Of a stretch of 64,000 bases of DNA, positions 768-45,076 are shown piece after piece (the first letter of the stretch is position 1; every line of letters starts with the position of its first letter). This stretch comes from Chiloscyllium plagiosum. Its lineage: Eukaryota. Under the pieces are notes generated by a model, which was not told where the DNA came from, searched no databases, and saw only the letters and a program-made list of their open reading frames with translations. Position numbers and translations under genes: made by a program. The stretch lies in the NCBI RefSeq assembly GCF_004010195.1, contig NC_057718.1:22860952-22924951 (forward strand), in the 5' to 3' direction.

Positions 768-2397
768 ACACTTCTTGCACATTAATTTCAATAATGTTTT
801 TACTGGCTACTCTGCCTTTAAGGCTAAGCCCTGAGCTGTAGAATTCCCTCCCTAAATGTTTCTCTCTCTTGCTGTACTGCTCCTTGATGCCTACAGCTTT
901 AAACAATACTTCAGTCACTTGTTTTCATGCTCCTTTGATGTGGCCCGATGTAACATTTGACGTATAATAGCTCCTATTTAGCCCCTATGAACACCTTACC
1001 ATCTTCAAGGTATTGGGTAAATGTCAACCACAGGCAGAAAGTTGAGAATAACAAATGAAGCAAGAATGGTGGAATTTTACTCCTTTCAGTCAATGGTAAA
1101 TACTCAATGAATCATATGCTTGACTGTCTCAGTCTTCTGAGGGATAATGATTTCAGGTCAGATCACAGCATTACTGTCATGCTTTACATCAAATGTCCAA
1201 TTCAGGAGAAATAAGCATGATATACACAATCTGAGCTGACTTGACCAACTTCATGGTGAGTGAGCAGAAATTTTATCGGAACAGTATTTTGATGCAAAAT
1301 GAAGGTCTATGTGAAACAGCCAGAGGTGCAATAAAACCTCTGGTACATACAGCTCTTGAAGTGCACAGTTGGTAAAGTGTGTTATTCCAATATACTAAAC
1401 TAAGGGGCAAAACATTCTGTCAAGTGCACCACATGACAGAATTCACTGAAACCATGACAGTGCCAGTAGCAGATTAAAAAAAGAAAGAAATCTGGTATCA
1501 CTAGTTTTGAGAATGTTGAAAAACGCAAATGTTGGCAGCTGAGTGTGGGAGAAGGAGAAAGATAGGATATTCCAGCTGTTGATGTGGGAATTGGATAGGG
1601 CTACACAAGGAAAAGAGATTGTGAAAACCAGAAAAAAATGGAAGTTCTATCAAAAAAAAGAGGTAAATTAAAAGAGTATCAGATAAGACGTTCCTAATTC
1701 CAAAAACAGAAGTAAAATCAAATATCACAATGCAGTCCGAAATAATTCTGAAGAAAAAGCAATTTTCTGAATCATTTTTTCCAGAAATGTTGCCAAACAC
1801 GTTGCATGCTTTTGCTATATTTTTAAAATCTTGATTCTGTTCAATTAATTGTTTTTATTCAGTTATTTTTCAGGCAAAGGTAGCAGTTATTTCACATGAT
1901 ACAGCGATGACTAGTTCGTCTACTTGTGCAGTATTCGTGTCGTATGTAACACTGGGAGAACACACTTAATTCAGTCACATGCACTTTATCAAGATTCTAT
2001 AAGATCAGAGCAAGCATACTGCATCGACTTAATGTCTTAGCTAAAGAATGGCATCTCTAGCAATACTTCCAAATACTCTTCTGCAGGCACAATTTGAATT
2101 GGAAATTAACCAGCAAGTGACCCATTAAAAATATCAAGTGGTTGAAGATTAACAGTGTTCATTGAGGATGTCATAAAGGTAAATTAAGAGACACTTAAAG
2201 AGCCTCAAAGAAAAGTCACCCAGGAGATGCATTGAAACTAAGATCAAATGACGCCAATCAGTTAAACTATCACAGAACATCATAAATCGACAACTGAATC
2301 AGAAAGTGCTGGGAATGTTCAGCAGGTCCAGCAGTATCTGTGGAGAGTGAAAAACAGAATAAATGTTTTATGAATTTTCATAACACATTAATGTAAA

Positions 2398-4030
2398 AGG
2401 AATAACAGGGGATGCTGGAAATCTGAAATGAAAACAGAAATTGCTGGAGAAATGCAGCAGGTCTTGCAGTGTCTGTGCAGTAAAATCAAAGTTAACATTT
2501 CGCATCCAGTAACCCTCCTTCAGAACTGTTAGTAGCTAGGAAAAGGTAGCTTGTATGCTGGAGACAGGGGGATTGGGAAGGGGGTAAATATGTGAGCAAA
2601 TAGGTGGAGATGGAGACAGAAGGATGCATCTCAGTCAGCCAAAGAGAATGAAAAGGTGAAAATAGGGAGCTTAAACAGGTGGAAATGGGTTGGTTGTGCT
2701 GAAAACGGTCTATGCCATGATAAACCTGGGGTGTAAGGGTGGTAAAGGACTTAGAGGAAGGCATTCTGCTTCTAAAATTATTGACCTTGATACTGAGTCC
2801 TGAAGGCTGCAGGGTCCCCAAGTGGAAATTGAGATGCTGTTGTTCCAGGTTGGACTGAGACTCGCTGGAGTACTGCAGCAAGTACTGCAGTGAGACAGAA
2901 ATGTAGGTGTTCTGCAAAGCAGTCACCAAGTCTGCATTTTATCTCCCCAGTGTAGTGGAGACCAGATTGTGAGCAGCGAATACAGTAGATTAGATTGAAT
3001 GAAGTGCAGGTAAATCGCTATTTCACCTGGAAGATGTGTCTGGAGCCTTGGATACTGAGAAGGGAGGAAGTAAATAGGCAATTGTTATACCTTCTATGAT
3101 TGTATGGGAAGGTGATGTATGGGAATGGGAGATATTGAGAATGGAGGAGGGTTGATGCCCTGGAGGGAATGGTTCCTGTGAAATGCTGACAAGAGAGGAG
3201 AGAAGAATATGTGTCTGATGCTGTCATCCTCCTGGAAGTGGCAGAAATCCCGGCTTATGATTCTTTGGATGTTAATGCTGGTGGGGTGGTAAGTGAGCAC
3301 CAAGGGAACAATTGCAATGTTGTGGAGGGAAGAGAAGGGGTGAAGGCAGAAGTGCAGGAGATGGGTCAGGCATGGCTAAGGGCCCTGTGGGGATTCCTTG
3401 GTTGAGAAAAAGGATGGACATTTCTGAGGCTGTCTGGCAGGAGGTGGCATCATCAGAACAGATGTGATGGAGTCAAAGAAACTGGGAGAATTGAATGGAG
3501 TCTTTACAGGAGGTAGGGTGTGAGGATGCATAGTCAAGATAAGTGTGGGAGTTGGTAGGCTTGTAATGGATATCGGTGGCCAGCCTAGCACCAGAAATGG
3601 AAACAGAGATGTCAAAGAAGGGAAGATAAGAGTCAGAAAGGGACGAGGTGAAGGTGAGGGCAGGTTGAAAATTAAAAGTGCAATGGATAATTTTTTTCAG
3701 TTCTGAACCAAGGAGGGAAGCAGCACCAATGATGTCATCGATGCACCAGAGAAAGAATTGTGGGGACAGAATGAATGGGATTGGAGCAAAGGATGTTCCA
3801 TGTACCCCACAAAGAGACAGGTATAACTGGGGCCATTGCAGGTACACATGGCCACATCTTTGATCTGAAGTAAGCGAAAAGAATTAAAGGAGATATTGGT
3901 GATGGATGGGGACAGTTCAGATCTGCTTTCCAAGTAGATGGGAAAAACCCTGAGACTATTCTGATGGAGTGAATGAGTAGAGTGCTGGATCTTGATATTG
4001 ATTTCCAGCATCTGCAATGTTCTTTTATAA
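2398..4030 (-). mobile_element. Degenerate Penelope-like element (RT + GIY-YIG endonuclease + terminal repeat with hammerhead motif, family B)
   Basis: ORF 3473-3847 has RT-like WCIDDI, LPFFDISV and DIHYKPTNSHTYLDYASSHP. About 2940-3015 reads FTCTSFNLIYCIRCSQSGLHYTG (GIY-YIG). Terminus 2400-2527 reads on the minus strand agtt-ctgaagg-a-gggtt-actg-gatgc-gaaa-tgtt-aact. A short inverted tail lies near 4000-4025. Confidence 0.88.
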
Positions 4031-4050
4031 TCTATAGTGAGTATACTATG

Positions 4051-4830
4051 GTGCCAATGATGCAAGATGGCGGCGGAGTAGGACCCTCCAGCCAGAGTTT
4101 GCCTGGTTTGCCCTTCTTCTTCTTTTCTTCTTTTTTTCTTCCTCTTAGTGATTTTCTTTGTTCCTCTCCTCCTCCTTTTTGTTCTCTTTGATTCCTGGCC
4201 TCCAGCAATGATTCCCAGCCTCTGGTGACAATTCCTGACCCCAGTGAGTGACAATTCCCAGCCTCTGTGGATGATTCCTGGCCTCAGGCGATGATTCCCA
4301 GCCTCCCCTGGTGCAGTGGCCTCCCATTGCAGCCTCCTGGCCTGACATAGCCAACCTTCTGGTCACCCATTCTGGCCTCCTGTGTTGGCATGGTGACCTC
4401 TCAATCTGGCTCTGTGGCAACTTTCCGTAGGGCCCTCTTTCTCTGATGCATCAAAGACATCATTGGTGCTATTTCTCTCCTTGGTCCAGAATTGAAAAAC
4501 ATTATCCATTGCACTTTCAATTTTCACTCTGGCCTCACCTTCACCTGTTGTATGATAACCTCCTGGCCTGGCCTCCCATTGTATTCCCAGCATGGTGTGG
4601 AGCCAGGGCAAGTGTGGGCTGGAAGCTCAGTGCCAGTGTGGTCTGCTGTACTGAACTTTTAATTCTGTAATGATGGACCTTTTATTTCTGTATTGTCTAA
4701 GTCACGTAATTAAAAAACCTGTGCCTAGGTACTTTTGTATCTAAGGGTTGGCATTGTAATTAGCAACATATACACTCTTCACTTTACTCATTGAGTATAT
4801 GTGACAATAGAGGCATTCTATTCTATTCTA
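4051..4830 (+). mobile_element. Non-autonomous LINE-derived element, possibly Rex1/Babar-type
   Basis: 5' caagatggcggc motif, pyrimidine tract, internal ~20-bp tandem repeats (4195-4310), 3' gtgacaatagaggc followed by (attct)n. No RT ORF. Confidence 0.45.
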
Positions 4831-5952: not shown

Positions 5953-6168
5953 AAAATAAAAACCAAAAGAACTGCAGATGCTGTATATCAGAAACAAAAA
6001 CAGAATTTGCTGGAAAAGCTCAGCAGGTATAGCAGCATCTATGAAGAGAAATCAGAGTTAACGCTTCGGGTCTGGAGGAAAGGTCATCGGACCCAAACAT
6101 TAACTCTGATTTCTCTTCACTGACGCTGCCAGATCTGCTGAGCATTTCCAGCAAATTCTGTTTTTGTT
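5953..6168. mobile_element. Inverted pair of PLE termini (family B), palindromic insertion
   Basis: 5993-6070 is the reverse complement of 6092-6168. The left arm has an extra ~40-nt extension. Flanks cataaattt at 5941-5949 and 6169-6177. Confidence 0.85.
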
Positions 6169-24045: not shown

Positions 24046-25862
24046 AAGCATGGTTGACCGGAGATGGTCCCACTTTTACCACCAGCCATAGGTATCTCAG
24101 AAGAAATTAGAGGTTGATAATCAAGCTGTTTGGCCATCTTATAAGAACTAGGAGCAGGAGGGGCATTTCAGCCCCACGAGTCTTGCTGAATGCTTCTTCT
24201 GTGACCATCATGCCTGGAGCTGCAGTTCACCCGAGAGACTCTGGCTCAAAGGTGGAGATGCTACTAATTGTGCCACAAGATGTCCTTCCCTTTCTATGCA
24301 CACTGACTCATCCATTGGCCTTTTTATGTTCCATTTGTTCAGTTGTTTAGTTTCTAGTACGAATGCATAAAAATTGTGCAGTAGTTAGTTATTATAAATC
24401 AGTGAAGTAACTGATGATTTAACCAGCTGTAAGCAGATCAATCAGAGAAATGAGGCTGCGATGGAGACGGACAGAGAAGTAACACCCTGTACTAGACTGT
24501 ATACAGAGAAGGTATTACACTGAAGGTATACAGTGTAAACAAAGGGTTGGAGTTACTTTACCATCCCTAAATCCAGGTTAATTTTAGAGAACAGTTAAGG
24601 AGAACCAATTGGTTCAACATGAGGGGGACTGGGTCAAATCAAGCTTTCTATTAAGATCTACATTCCATGACTACTGGTTTTCCAGATTAAAATTGACAGC
24701 CTTTCTCCTGTTTCTGGCAGATGGGCTTATCACCATTTTCTGGAAATTCCAGCAGCTGGGATTTGGGTGGCAACCAACATTTGAGGTGGTCTGACTGAGA
24801 CAGGGAAAAGAAATTTCACTTTAATAGAGAGCTGCGGTTCTCAATTGTTCGGATTCATTGAAGGTAGAGATTGATAATTTGTTTTGGAAACTGGAGGAAT
24901 TGAGCTAAATGCGGTTAGTGTAGAAAAGTGGAGTTTAGGTTAAATATCAGCCTTGATCAAATTGCATTGCAGAGCAGGCTGGATCAGTGGGAAGGTATGC
25001 ACTAATTTCTCAAGTTGGATTGATTTGAAAGTGAACTGTTTTCTTGACTGTAAGGTGATTACAGCTGTCACTTGCTTATTGAGAAGTTATATAACAATAT
25101 GTATATGCATGTTTTAGAATCATCCTTCATAAATCCTATGATTAAAGACAATGATGGCCCACATCTTGCTCACCCTGTCCACATATAGTAAGGAGGCTTC
25201 AAAGCTGAATGACTAAAATCAAGTTAATTATTAGGCTTTGAATTATTAATAGAATTAGACTTATCTGCAATGAAGAAAAGCAGATTAAAGGGATCATAAA
25301 TTTAATCTTGGAAACATTAAGTGGCAACAGAACATGCTGCTTGAGCAAAGAATTCATGAAATCTTTTGATACATTTGAGACTGCTAAGAAAAGAGATAAA
25401 TATTCATAGAATAATGGATATATAAACCAGACTGTTGATTAAAGTGTCTAAAAATCAGTTCAATAAATTATGCTTTTAAGGCAGAATTGATGGAGATAAC
25501 AGCAATTTTGGATAAAGACGATAAAACATTATATTGAACATGAATGTCTTGTCAGTTGTTAGTACCATGTATATATCCTAACATGGACTACAACTTTATA
25601 TTAGGAGATAAGAAAGCTCATGGGTAGAGTGGAAATTTCCTTTGCTTGTGACATGACAAGGATATTGTAAGCATAGTAGGAAGACTTCCTTTGTTTGCTA
25701 TTTCTAACAAAAGGGATCTCAGTCCTTTACATAAAATTTGTGATTTAGTTAGAATAATTAGCTGAGGAAGGAGAAAGTGAGGTCTGCAGATGCTGGAGAT
25801 CAAAGTTGAAACTTTATTGCTGGAACAGCACAGCAGGTCAGGCAACATCCAGGGAACAGGAG

Positions 25863-25898
25863 ATTCGACGTTTCGGGCACAGGCCCTTCTTCAGGAAT
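25863..25898 (-). ncRNA. Minimal type I hammerhead ribozyme motif (mirror copy)
   Basis: Exact reverse complement of 25904-25939. Confidence 0.8.
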
Positions 25899-25903
25899 GG
25901 GCC

Positions 25904-25939
25904 ATTCCTGAAGAAGGGCCTGTGCCCGAAACGTCGAAT
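25904..25939 (+). ncRNA. Minimal type I hammerhead ribozyme motif (intact core)
   Basis: AUUC-CUGAAGA-A-GGGC-CUGU-GCCC-GAAA-C-GUC/GAAU. Stem I AUUC:GAAU, stem II GGGC:GCCC, palindromic loopless stem III ACGU, GUC triplet. Confidence 0.8.
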
Positions 25940-26295
25940 CTCCTGTTCCCTGGATGCTGCCTGACCTGCTGTGCTGTTCCAGCAATAAAGTTTCAACTAA
26001 TTAGCTGAGGAAGCCTTCCCATTTTCAATGATATTGATACGTCACAGTGCTTCTTGGCATTATTTCAGAAAAGTGATGCACTTTGTCAGTTTTCCATTTG
26101 CTTTCATCAGGACAGGTCAAAAGTAGGGAAGTAATACAAAACAGCATTTTTAATAGATGAGAGGAGAGTACTGATTGCTTGGCAAATGGACTGATGATAT
26201 TCTGTTGTGCGATGTTAATAATTTGTACATTTGTCTGAAACTTCACCCTTTCCACTTTTGTTGAAGTATCTTTTTTTTAAATAAACGACATCATC

Positions 26296-27547
26296 TTAAA
26301 TTAGAGGAATTAGGAATGCACAACTTCTCTTTATGCGTTGGAAATCACTTCTCACCAACTTGAGTTTTTTGAAGAGGTAACAAAGAGGATTGATGAGGCC
26401 AGAGCAGTGGACGTGATCTATATGGACTTCAGTAAGACACTTGACAAGGTTCGTCATGGGAGAGTGGACAGCAAGGTTAGAGCACACGGAATAGAAGGAA
26501 AACTATCCATTTGAATATAGAACTGGCTCAAAGGTAGAAGACAGAGGGTTGTGGTGGAGGGTTGCTTTTCAGACTGGAGGCCCGTGACCAGTGCCACAAG
26601 GATTGGTGCTGGGTCCACTACTTTTCGTCATTTATATAAATGGTTAATAAGTTTGCAAATGACATCAAAATTTGAAGTGTAGAGGACAGCGAAGAAGGTT
26701 ACACCAGATTCCAGTGAGATATTGATCAGATGAGCTGAGGAGTGGCAGATGGAGTTTATGTTAGATACATGTAAGTTGCTGCATTTTGGAAAGGCAAATC
26801 AGGGCAGGACATAAACACTTAATGGTAAGGTCCTGGGGAGTGTTGCTGAACAAAGAGACCTTGGAGTGCAGGTTCATAACTCCTTGAAAGTGGAGTCGCA
26901 GGTAGATAGGATAGTGAAGAAGGTGTTTGGTATGCTTTCCTTTATTGGTCAGACCATTGAGTATTGACATTGGGAGATCATGTTGCAGCTGTACAGGTCA
27001 TTGGTTAGACCACTTTTGAAATATTGTGTGCAATTCTGGCCTCCCTGCTATGGGAAGGGTGTTGTGAAACTGGAAAAGCTTCAGAAACGATTTACAAGGA
27101 TGTTGCCAGGGTTAGAGGATTTGAACTATAGCGAGAGCCTGAATAGGCTGGGGCTGTTTTCCTGGAGCGTTGGAGGCTGAGAGGTGACCTTATAGAGGTT
27201 TGTAAAATCATGAGGGGCATGGATAGAGTGAATGGACAAGGTGTTTTCTCTAAGGTGGATGAGTCCAGAATTAGAGGGCATAGGTTTAAGGCGAGAAGGG
27301 AACATTTACAAGGGACCGAAGAGGCAGAATGTGGTCCGTGTATGGGATGAGCTGCCAGAGGATGTGATGGAAGCTGGTACAATTACAACACTCAAAAGCC
27401 ATCTGGATAGGTCCATGAATAGGAAGGGTTTAGAGGGATGTGGACCAAATTCTGGCCAATGGGACTTGATTAGGTTAAGGTCTCTGGTTGGCATGGATGA
27501 GTTGGACCGAAAGGTCTGTTCTATGCTGTATATCCCTATGACTCTAA
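26296..27547 (+). mobile_element. CR1/HER1 LINE RT and 3' end
   Basis: AVDVIYMDFSK, VLGPLLFVIY, LYRSLVRPLLKYCVQFW and VRVWDELP motifs. Ends ctatgactcta. Confidence 0.93.
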
Positions 27548-37692: not shown

Positions 37693-38215
37693 GGCAGAGA
37701 GCAGAGTTAACATTTCTAGTCCAGTTGTCCTTCATCAGAACTGATAGCGGCCAGGAAAAAGTGGTATTTATGCTGAAGACAAAGTTGGGGGAGGGGTGGG
37801 GGAAAGGGAGAGGTGAGAGGGTAGGTGGAGATGGAGCCCAGAAAGAGAAAAGGGTAGGTCAATGAGGGGATAAGGGATGACATGACTAGACATCAAATCC
37901 TAGACTCTGCAGGGACCCCAAATAGAACACGTGTTGCTGTCCCCTCATTTTCCTATCCCTTCCATTTCTCTCTCTCTGCCTGGACTCCATCTCTACCTTT
38001 CCACTCACTTCTCCTTCCCCCCGCCCTTCCCCAACATTGTCTCAATAAATAGCATAAATATCACTTTTTTTGTATCTGCTATCAGTTCTGATGAAGAATC
38101 ATTAGATTTGAAACATTAACTCTGCTTTTCCACAGATTCAACCAAACCTGTTGAACCTTGCCAGCAATTTCTGTTTTTGTTTCAGACCTCCAACATCTGC
38201 AGTTCTTTGCTTTAT
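37693..38215. mobile_element. Inverted pair of PLE 3' ends (family B), each with a hammerhead motif
   Basis: Minus 37705-37742 reads agtt-ctgatga...gaaa-tgtt-aact. Plus 38084-38121 reads agtt-ctgatga-a-gaatc-atta-gattt-gaaa-catt-aact. Confidence 0.82.
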
Positions 38216-44490: not shown

Positions 44491-44897
44491 ACTTTGCTAG
44501 CTCTGCAGTTGTAGATCTGATCCAAGGAAGTGGATGGTTAACTGACCAGCAGCTTTGTGGCGTGTGGCTACTGTAGACACTCCTCATTGTGATATGAAGG
44601 TAAGAGAAGTGCTCTCTGTATATCTTAAGGATTGAGACGTCTATGGAGAGCCTTCTTCCTCCTCCTCCTCACTCTGCCAGAGGTTTCTCCTTCATGTTGT
44701 TTCTGCTCCATCTCTCTGTTATGCTTCAAGAAGAGCAGAATCTTCAGTCACCATTACTTTCTGCCTAGGGGCCTTATCCTTGCAATGGTCCAGCACCGTT
44801 CACCCTGAGCTGCAGAAGGCAATAGTATGAAGCCTTCCTGTATCACAGTGTGCATAAATGTGCAGTAATTGGACCGTCCCTTGCCTCAATGTAAAGA

Positions 44898-45016
44898 AGA
44901 AGGGCTTATGCCCGAAACGTCGATTCTCCTGTTCCCTGGATGCTGCCTGACCTGCTGTGCTTTTCCAGCAACACATTTTCAGCTCTGATCTCCAGCATCT
45001 GCAGACCTCACTTTCT
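44898..45016 (+). mobile_element. Young solo PLE terminus (family A) with perfect 14-bp TSD
   Basis: TSD cctcaatgtaaaga at 44884-44897 and 45017-45030. Begins aga-a-gggc-ttat-gccc-gaaa-cgtc, so the CUG of the core is lost. Confidence 0.92.
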
Positions 45017-45076
45017 CCTCAATGTAAAGATAGTCCAGTCACAGACTATAATAACAAGACGATAGTGTTTTAGTGA

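What the first reader, a model, noticed from the sequence alone, without database searches (positions are those of the whole stretch)
25755..26013. Young 97-bp palindromic mini-retroelement with an intact hammerhead ribozyme core on each strand
Seen: arms 25804-25900 and 25902-25998 differ at one base around a 1-nt centre, flanked by a perfect 16-bp TSD. Each strand reads AUUC CUGAAGA A GGGC CUGU GCCC GAAA C GUC GAAU. Established: Penelope-like elements carry minimal type I hammerheads whose short palindromic stem III is thought to need dimerisation, and an extra A after the core is a tolerated variant. Inference: this is a very recent, ORF-less PLE-mobilised insertion. Any read-through transcript would contain the ribozyme plus its own antisense and fold into a long hairpin, a possible Dicer/ADAR substrate against the family.
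Basis: partly seen in the sequence, partly recalled or inferred. Interest (0 to 1): 0.8.

Follow-up and report, generated by a model that had tools for sequence, protein, structure and literature searches.

The report
Back-to-back ends of a Penelope retroelement
This 227-base mirror-image insert is real and young, but it is one of likely thousands of stub landings of an ordinary Penelope-type jumping gene in this genome; its lopsided ends suggest the element likely copies its RNA from both sides of the DNA cut at once.

Summary
The palindrome, both minimal hammerhead cores and the 16-bp TSD are real. A related species has the empty site. It is not an independent mini-element. Each arm is the pLTR of an abundant RT + GIY-YIG Penelope-like element (17,371 exact arm matches). 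In an unbiased sample, 32 of 76 insertions were head-to-head. Of these, 27 pair a tailed with a tail-less arm, and centres differ from site to site. Of 100 arms, 51 start at the hammerhead's first bases, often after an extra G, as the parent's ORF-start copies do. Best reading (0.7): two cDNAs, primed at the two tail boundaries from two nicks, run to the RNA's capped 5' end and join. In a read-through RNA the ribozymes cannot fold, and no RNA from this locus was seen, so the Dicer/ADAR idea is untested. The structure is in print; the twin-priming reading was not found in my searches. This scan noted the same class before on other DNA (82 notes).

The parts
25755..25770 (.). left target-site duplication (16 bp)
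   Evidence: present once at the empty site of organism B
25771..25997 (.). whole insert, 227 bp: tailed antisense pLTR arm + centre + tail-less sense pLTR arm
   Evidence: the 30 best genome matches share these ends to within 3 nt, with 8-18-bp TSDs
25771..25803 (-). 33-nt PLE 'tail', on this arm only; its two edges are the inferred RT start sites
   Evidence: 3' ends of 100 arms are bimodal, 36 tail-less and 56 tailed
25804..25898 (-). left pLTR arm; begins at A(-4) = 25898, the inferred RNA start
25863..25898 (-). minimal type I hammerhead, minus strand (C3 at 25894; predicted cut after 25867)
   Evidence: cleavage not tested
25899..25903 (.). centre GGGCC: not the parent's upstream sequence; matches stem II, likely a template-jump filler
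   Evidence: parent upstream differs; 28 of 30 GGCC-centre matches sit at inverted junctions
25904..25939 (+). minimal type I hammerhead, plus strand: stem I 25904-07/25936-39, core 25908-14, extra A 25915, stem II 25916-27, GAAA 25928-31, loopless stem III, predicted cut after 25935
   Evidence: cleavage not tested
25904..25997 (+). right pLTR arm, tail-less
25998..26013 (.). right target-site duplication (16 bp)

Best explanation
The insert is two copies of the hammerhead-bearing end (pLTR) of an abundant Penelope-like retroelement, joined head to head between a 16-bp target duplication, and it was likely made in one landing by twin priming. [quoted passage not shown] Inferred: its RNA starts, capped, at the first base of hammerhead stem I. 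Inferred: the protein, probably a dimer, nicks both target strands about 15 bp apart. One nick primes cDNA at the far edge of the tail and the other at the near edge, 33-35 nt further in. When priming falls on the 5' pLTR, both cDNAs run only 95-130 nt to the RNA's 5' end, may jump once more (the GGGCC filler), and are joined end to end. The result is a lopsided palindrome, likely inert. The hammerhead is inherited cargo kept under selection in the parent; it is uncut in these copies.
For: Parent: L211 and L216 carry RVT_1 + GIY-YIG ORFs followed by this pLTR at 98-99%. In 5 of 30 ORF-start loci the pLTR stands intact before the ATG; 3 of these begin at -4/-5 and 2 are tandem (output partly cut). 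Two start sites: 36 and 56 of 100 arms end at the two tail edges. Coordination: 27 of 28 complete inverted pairs are tailed + tail-less against 48% expected, p=4.5e-8. Independent copying: the tail-less arm reaches further 5' in 17 of 29 pairs (one of the 17 is an alignment artefact), so neither arm can be a copy of the other; 26 of 29 centres differ. RNA start: 51 of 100 arms begin in a 7-nt bin at stem I against 4 and 15 in the neighbouring bins. The base before A(-4), where the TSD does not explain it, is G in 14 of 18 against 11 of 33 at other starts, p=0.003. In vitro, a related PLE cuts and extends both strands and starts RT at the two tail edges, with hammerhead cleavage dispensable (PMC11167929).
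Against: No biochemical test on this family. Some palindromes were recopied whole with 64 to about 1000 nt of shared flank (L131/L234/L235; L064/L065/L140/L158 and others). In one such lineage the centres also vary, so variable centres alone do not prove de novo assembly. One other locus (L002) has exactly this centre. The G test is small (n=18), and RNA reads showed no pile-up of starts (a PolyA single-cell library, not a 5'-end one). Short arms could also come from transcripts of solo pLTRs rather than the full mRNA. The published explanation for head-to-head junctions is different (self-priming on an antisense template, PMC3846280).
Confidence: 0.7

Rival explanations
1. A palindromic master was transcribed through, copied whole as a SINE-like unit and trimmed at the tail edge.
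For: Palindromes recopied with their flank exist in this family. L002 has the same centre. The 30 closest copies share both ends.
Against: Recopied cases carry shared flank and lack an abutting TSD; this one has a direct 16-bp TSD and an empty site. 26 of 29 centres differ. The arm mismatch is a rare point change (35 matches, none listed as a close opposite-strand pair). 18 of 44 solo copies end at the same tail-less edge with no palindrome.
Confidence: 0.12
2. One cDNA folds back on itself (or an antisense RNA self-primes) and copies itself to make the second arm.
For: Proposed in print for head-to-head junctions (PMC3846280). Many junctions have 1-3 nt overlaps. Both arms share variants in 8 of 119 pairs.
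Against: Each arm often holds sequence the other lacks: the tail on one, up to about 100 nt more 5' sequence on the other (L156, L179, L185, L204, L207). It does not explain the fixed stop at the tail-less edge.
Confidence: 0.1
3. Same twin priming, but the shared 5' end is an RT stop, or a nuclease or exonuclease boundary at the ribozyme fold, not a capped start.
For: The boundary coincides with the end of stem I. A related PLE nuclease prefers ATT (PMC11167929), the letters found here. 11 of 33 control junctions also show G.
Against: G excess is specific to A(-4). The site reads like an initiator (recalled consensus YYANWYY). Stem I is barely formed in the longer RNA (p<=0.03).
Confidence: 0.07
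4. Assembly or library artefact.
For: Short-read assembly with many gaps in longer copies; no listed contig spans the whole palindrome.
Against: Both junctions occur in contigs of two samples, and the empty site with one TSD occurs in a related species. Other copies have their own TSDs.
Confidence: 0.01

Closest known systems
EN+ PLE insertions with inverted 5' pLTR, one-sided tail and TSD (Pen2a_Av, PMC3846280; overview PMC8557442; D. virilis Penelope, PMC2377424)
   Same: Head-to-head pLTRs, a 30-40-nt tail on one arm only, a TSD of similar size, 5' truncation, partial tandems in sister copies.
   Different: No ORF at all between the arms; both arms stop at the hammerhead's first bases; thousands of such stubs. 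The data here favour twin priming over the published self-priming.
PAc (Poseidon of Anolis), PMC11167929
   Same: Two RT start sites at the tail edges, both strands extended, hammerhead in the 5' pLTR and left uncut in inserts.
   Different: PAc is Poseidon clade with its ATG inside the hammerhead; here the ATG lies about 160 nt downstream and the linker is Neptune-like. The passages I read do not derive inverted arms from the two sites.
Minimal type I hammerheads of metazoan PLEs (PMC4209133)
   Same: Full core, extra base after A9, G10.1-C11.1, 4-bp helix I, palindromic loopless helix III. Opposite-strand pairs 100-700 bp apart were already noted there.
   Different: Helix II is 4 bp rather than 7-8; the two copies here are about 10 nt apart.
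Non-LTR retrozymes (bioRxiv 10.64898/2026.07.22.740005)
   Same: ORF-less, PLE-pLTR-derived, type I hammerhead; this family also has 224-bp tandem units.
   Different: Retrozymes are head-to-tail tandems able to release a monomer; this is head-to-head and cannot.
LINE-1 twin priming (recalled)
   Same: Two nicks, two cDNAs, inverted join with microhomology.
   Different: In L1 the second primer lands at variable upstream sites and the pieces do not overlap; here both start at fixed sites 33-35 nt apart and copy the same stretch.

Membership tests
EN+ Penelope-like element insertion | Parent ORF with RT and C-terminal GIY-YIG | tested here: met
   RVT_1 E 1.2e-8 (above cut-off) in L211, 2.7e-6 in L216; GIY-YIG above cut-off in L061, just below in L058, L211 and L216; pLTR 98-99% identical follows the ORF
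EN+ Penelope-like element insertion | pLTR at both ends of the ORF (partial tandem) | tested here: met
   after the ORF and before the ATG, shown on different loci; no gap-free full-length copy was found
EN+ Penelope-like element insertion | 30-40-nt tail at one end only | tested here: met
   33 nt at 25771-25803; 27 of 28 complete pairs are one-sided
EN+ Penelope-like element insertion | Inverted 5'-truncated copy and TSD | tested here: met
Neptune/Nematis clade | CX2-5CxxC linker between RT and EN | tested here: met
   C-x4-C-x2-C precedes the GIY-YIG motif; definition from PMC8557442
Neptune/Nematis clade | RT phylogeny (Neptune versus Nematis) | not tested
   no tree was built and no reference set was on hand
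PLE minimal hammerhead | Core, extra nt, helices I and II, palindromic helix III | tested here: met
   in 83 copies of other subfamilies the frequent changes fall on N7, loop 2, one stem-I base and CpG sites
PLE minimal hammerhead | Self-cleavage | not testable with these tools
   no read starts or ends piled up at the site
Rfam hammerhead families | Covariance-model match | tested here: not met
   none at E<=10
Non-LTR retrozyme | Two or more head-to-tail units each with a hammerhead | tested here: not met
   units are head-to-head
Independent non-autonomous mobile family | Copies descend from one palindromic master | tested here: not met
   26 of 29 centres differ; exceptions are lineages with shared flank

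The most novel reading that the evidence does not exclude
The long-noted inverted pLTR plus one-sided tail of Penelope-like elements is the direct footprint of a dimeric RT-nuclease that primes from both nicks at two fixed sites of a capped RNA whose first bases are the hammerhead. These stubs are then 'strong-stop' products of the parent's own 5' end. Each leaves two internal promoters facing outward that can fire into flanking DNA and occasionally remobilise it.
Probability: 0.5. Interest if true: 0.6.

Novelty: new member of a known kind. Interest (0 to 1): 0.33.

Why it matters
The locus itself is one stub among thousands and probably does nothing. The set matters as a natural record of how Penelope-like elements integrate, which the papers read describe as unresolved. 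It makes three cheap predictions: one tailed and one tail-less cDNA per target, a capped start at hammerhead stem I, and no need for ribozyme cleavage or an antisense template. Thousands of near-perfect 190-bp hairpins could also feed double-strand RNA pathways where they lie in transcribed DNA; that was not shown here.

Tried and rejected
Rfam found only miRNA-like hairpin scores below their cut-offs. The idea that the arm mismatch marks two different template RNAs was dropped: the variant occurs 35 times, about 0.3%, like a point mutation. The idea of a master RNA beginning with GGCC was dropped: 147 matches, 28 of 30 examined at inverted junctions. Run search: no RNA holder listed. RNA run X22 laid no reads, so it is no test; X15 contigs did not cover the flanks. 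A genome-wide direct count of palindromes was not obtained; the numbers are extrapolated from 100 consecutive matches on one contig. No host gene was identified: 18 of 32 long frames of the window were scanned and gave one RT fragment and two weak hits; short exons were not searched. The dimeric hammerhead fold could not be scored by a nested model. Look-ups by sequence and by place in the scan's notes were empty. No tree and no structure prediction were run.

Full report
Observation. The inverted repeat (97 nt, 99%, 1-nt gap) and the 16-bp direct repeat are at the stated places; the one mismatch is 25845/25957. A descriptor for a minimal type I hammerhead hits once per arm and nowhere else in the window, with 0 hits in 20 shuffles. 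The isolated 44-mer folds into stems I and II. Rfam does not recognise it.

Reality and age. In DNA runs X1 and X4 (two samples, one study; X1 may be the assembly's source) single contigs run from unique flank into each end. X5, from another study, shows the left junction. X9, a different organism label, has one contig joining 25754 to 25998: the empty site with one TSD. Its flanks differ at 18 of 947 bases. No empty allele appeared among the listed pieces of the three host-species runs, though contigs drop rare variants and the table was cut. So the insert postdates the species split; polymorphism is not shown.

Family. The genome is 3.56 Gb. I take it for a shark from recalled repeat resemblance and from the scan's unchecked notes; this was not tested. 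Exact 39-mers of the arm occur 11,385 times (hammerhead part) and 17,371 times (3' part). Upstream of longer copies lies a 3' UTR and an ORF with RT and GIY-YIG domains and a C-x4-C-x2-C linker, which fits the Neptune/Nematis description (PMC8557442, passages). Sequence downstream of the tail, found 354 times, leads to an ATG and a long reading frame. Five of 30 ORF-start loci keep the pLTR intact in front; three of them begin at -4/-5 of the hammerhead and two are tandem (part of the output cut). No gap-free full-length copy was found.

Anatomy of insertions. I took the first 100 consecutive matches (contig C1, 0-19.7 Mb). Their 3' ends are bimodal: 36 tail-less, 56 tailed, 8 other. Their 5' ends pile up: 51 in the bin -6..0, against 4 and 15 in the bins beside it. 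Grouped into 76 insertions (L061, 4 arms, left out), 32 are inverted. Of these, 27 are tailed + tail-less, 4 tailed + short fragment, and 1 was scored tailed/tailed although one search shows it tail-less; none is tail-less/tail-less. 27 of the 32 have a TSD of 8 bp or more, and 18 have both arms starting at the hammerhead like this one. Extrapolated: about 3,100 such stubs (1,900-4,700), about 800 with two exact hammerhead 39-mers.

Mechanism. Mixed pairs at 27 of 28 against 48% expected (p=4.5e-8) mean the two ends are coordinated. In 29 scorable pairs the tail-less arm reaches further 5' in 17 (one an alignment artefact), the tailed arm in 7, and 5 tie. Since the tailed arm alone has the tail, neither is a copy of the other, which argues against snap-back or the self-priming proposed in PMC3846280 (parts 2-3 of 5 and passages). 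A purified related PLE nicks and extends both strands, starts at the two tail edges, is predicted dimeric and does not need hammerhead cleavage (PMC11167929, parts 1-2 of 4). Twin priming joins these facts; it is my inference. For the shared 5' end: 2,328 arms start exactly at A(-4) after a non-parental base. Among 32 solo copies, 18 had a preceding base not explained by the TSD, and 14 of these were G, against 11 of 33 at other starts (p=0.003). An untemplated G is read as a cap signature for L1 (PMC9341517, passages), and D. virilis Penelope has an internal promoter (PMC2377424, passages). The initiator-like reading of the site is recalled. Here both arms start at -4/-5 around a GGGCC filler that matches stem II, not the parent's upstream bases.

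Against this reading. Some palindromes were recopied with their flank: L131, L234 and L235 share centre and 285 or more nt of flank but have different tail-side targets, and a larger group around L064/L065/L140/L158 shares 64 to about 1000 nt of flank while its centres vary. So palindromic templates can move, and centre variety alone is not proof. L002 has this locus's exact centre. Both arms share variants in 8 of 119 pairs, and 66 pairs have no difference between the arms, which fits one RNA source but also arm-to-arm copying.

Ribozyme. The motif meets every feature of the PLE min-hammerhead, which showed no monomer cleavage and weak dimer cleavage in vitro (PMC4209133, parts 1-2 of 4). Across 83 copies of other subfamilies the frequent changes fall on N7, loop 2, one stem-I base and CpG sites, which suggests selection in the parent. 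A read-through RNA folds into a -212 kcal/mol hairpin (z -26.7) in which both hammerhead stems have probability near 0. Only an RNA starting at the centre could fold stem II. RNA run X21 (about 2% read) laid 1,053 reads on the arms, 99% running on into other sequence, none on the unique flanks, with no pile-up of starts or ends. The family is present in RNA; this locus was not seen there.

Known or new. The inverted-pLTR, tail and TSD structure and opposite-strand hammerhead pairs are in print. Retrozymes differ in being head-to-tail (bioRxiv 10.64898/2026.07.22.740005, part 1 of 5 and passages). Searches for Penelope with twin priming, palindromic TSD inserts, shark hammerheads (PMC6155905 passages) and related terms gave no paper stating the twin-priming or cap reading. 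The library lacks most subscription journals, and I read no supplements; those of PMC11167929 and PMC4209133 may bear on this. The scan's own notes hold 82 similar findings in at least 11 genomes; my reading was written down before I saw them, and they are not independent support.

Verdict. Real, young, ordinary as a locus; a new member of a known kind. Interest 0.33, carried by the mechanistic test that the family allows.

Noticed in passing
window 44884-45030: Solo tailed copy of a sister subfamily (92% to the arm) starting inside the hammerhead core, with a 14-bp TSD at 44884 and 45017.
   Followed up: partly
window 5993-6168: Older inverted repeat (83%) made of a more distant pLTR relative; no TSD found.
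   Followed up: partly
window 37700-38126: Decayed long inverted repeat (69%) with CTGATGAAG-like motifs in the arms; perhaps an old head-to-head PLE insert.
   Followed up: no
window 26330-26600: Broken LINE-type RT fragment about 320 bp right of the insert (family label recalled).
   Followed up: no
L062, L249-L252, L266-L268, L272-L273: Head-to-tail tandem units of about 205-224 bp (pLTR + tail + ORF start), retrozyme-like derivatives of the same family.
   Followed up: partly
L064, L065, L105, L107, L108, L110, L111, L114, L140, L158: At least ten loci on one contig share a captured flank beside an inverted arm, with varying centres: a very active palindromic source lineage.
   Followed up: partly
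loci scanned: Other PLE-type hammerhead families with covarying stem II and an AGCU instead of ACGU palindromic stem III.
   Followed up: no
L199: Two arms face outward around about 150 bp of unrelated DNA, both starting at A(-4): possible capture between twin cDNAs.
   Followed up: no
L101:1300-1500 (approx.): A cadherin-like exon appears to lie between two oppositely oriented arms (label recalled, not tested).
   Followed up: no
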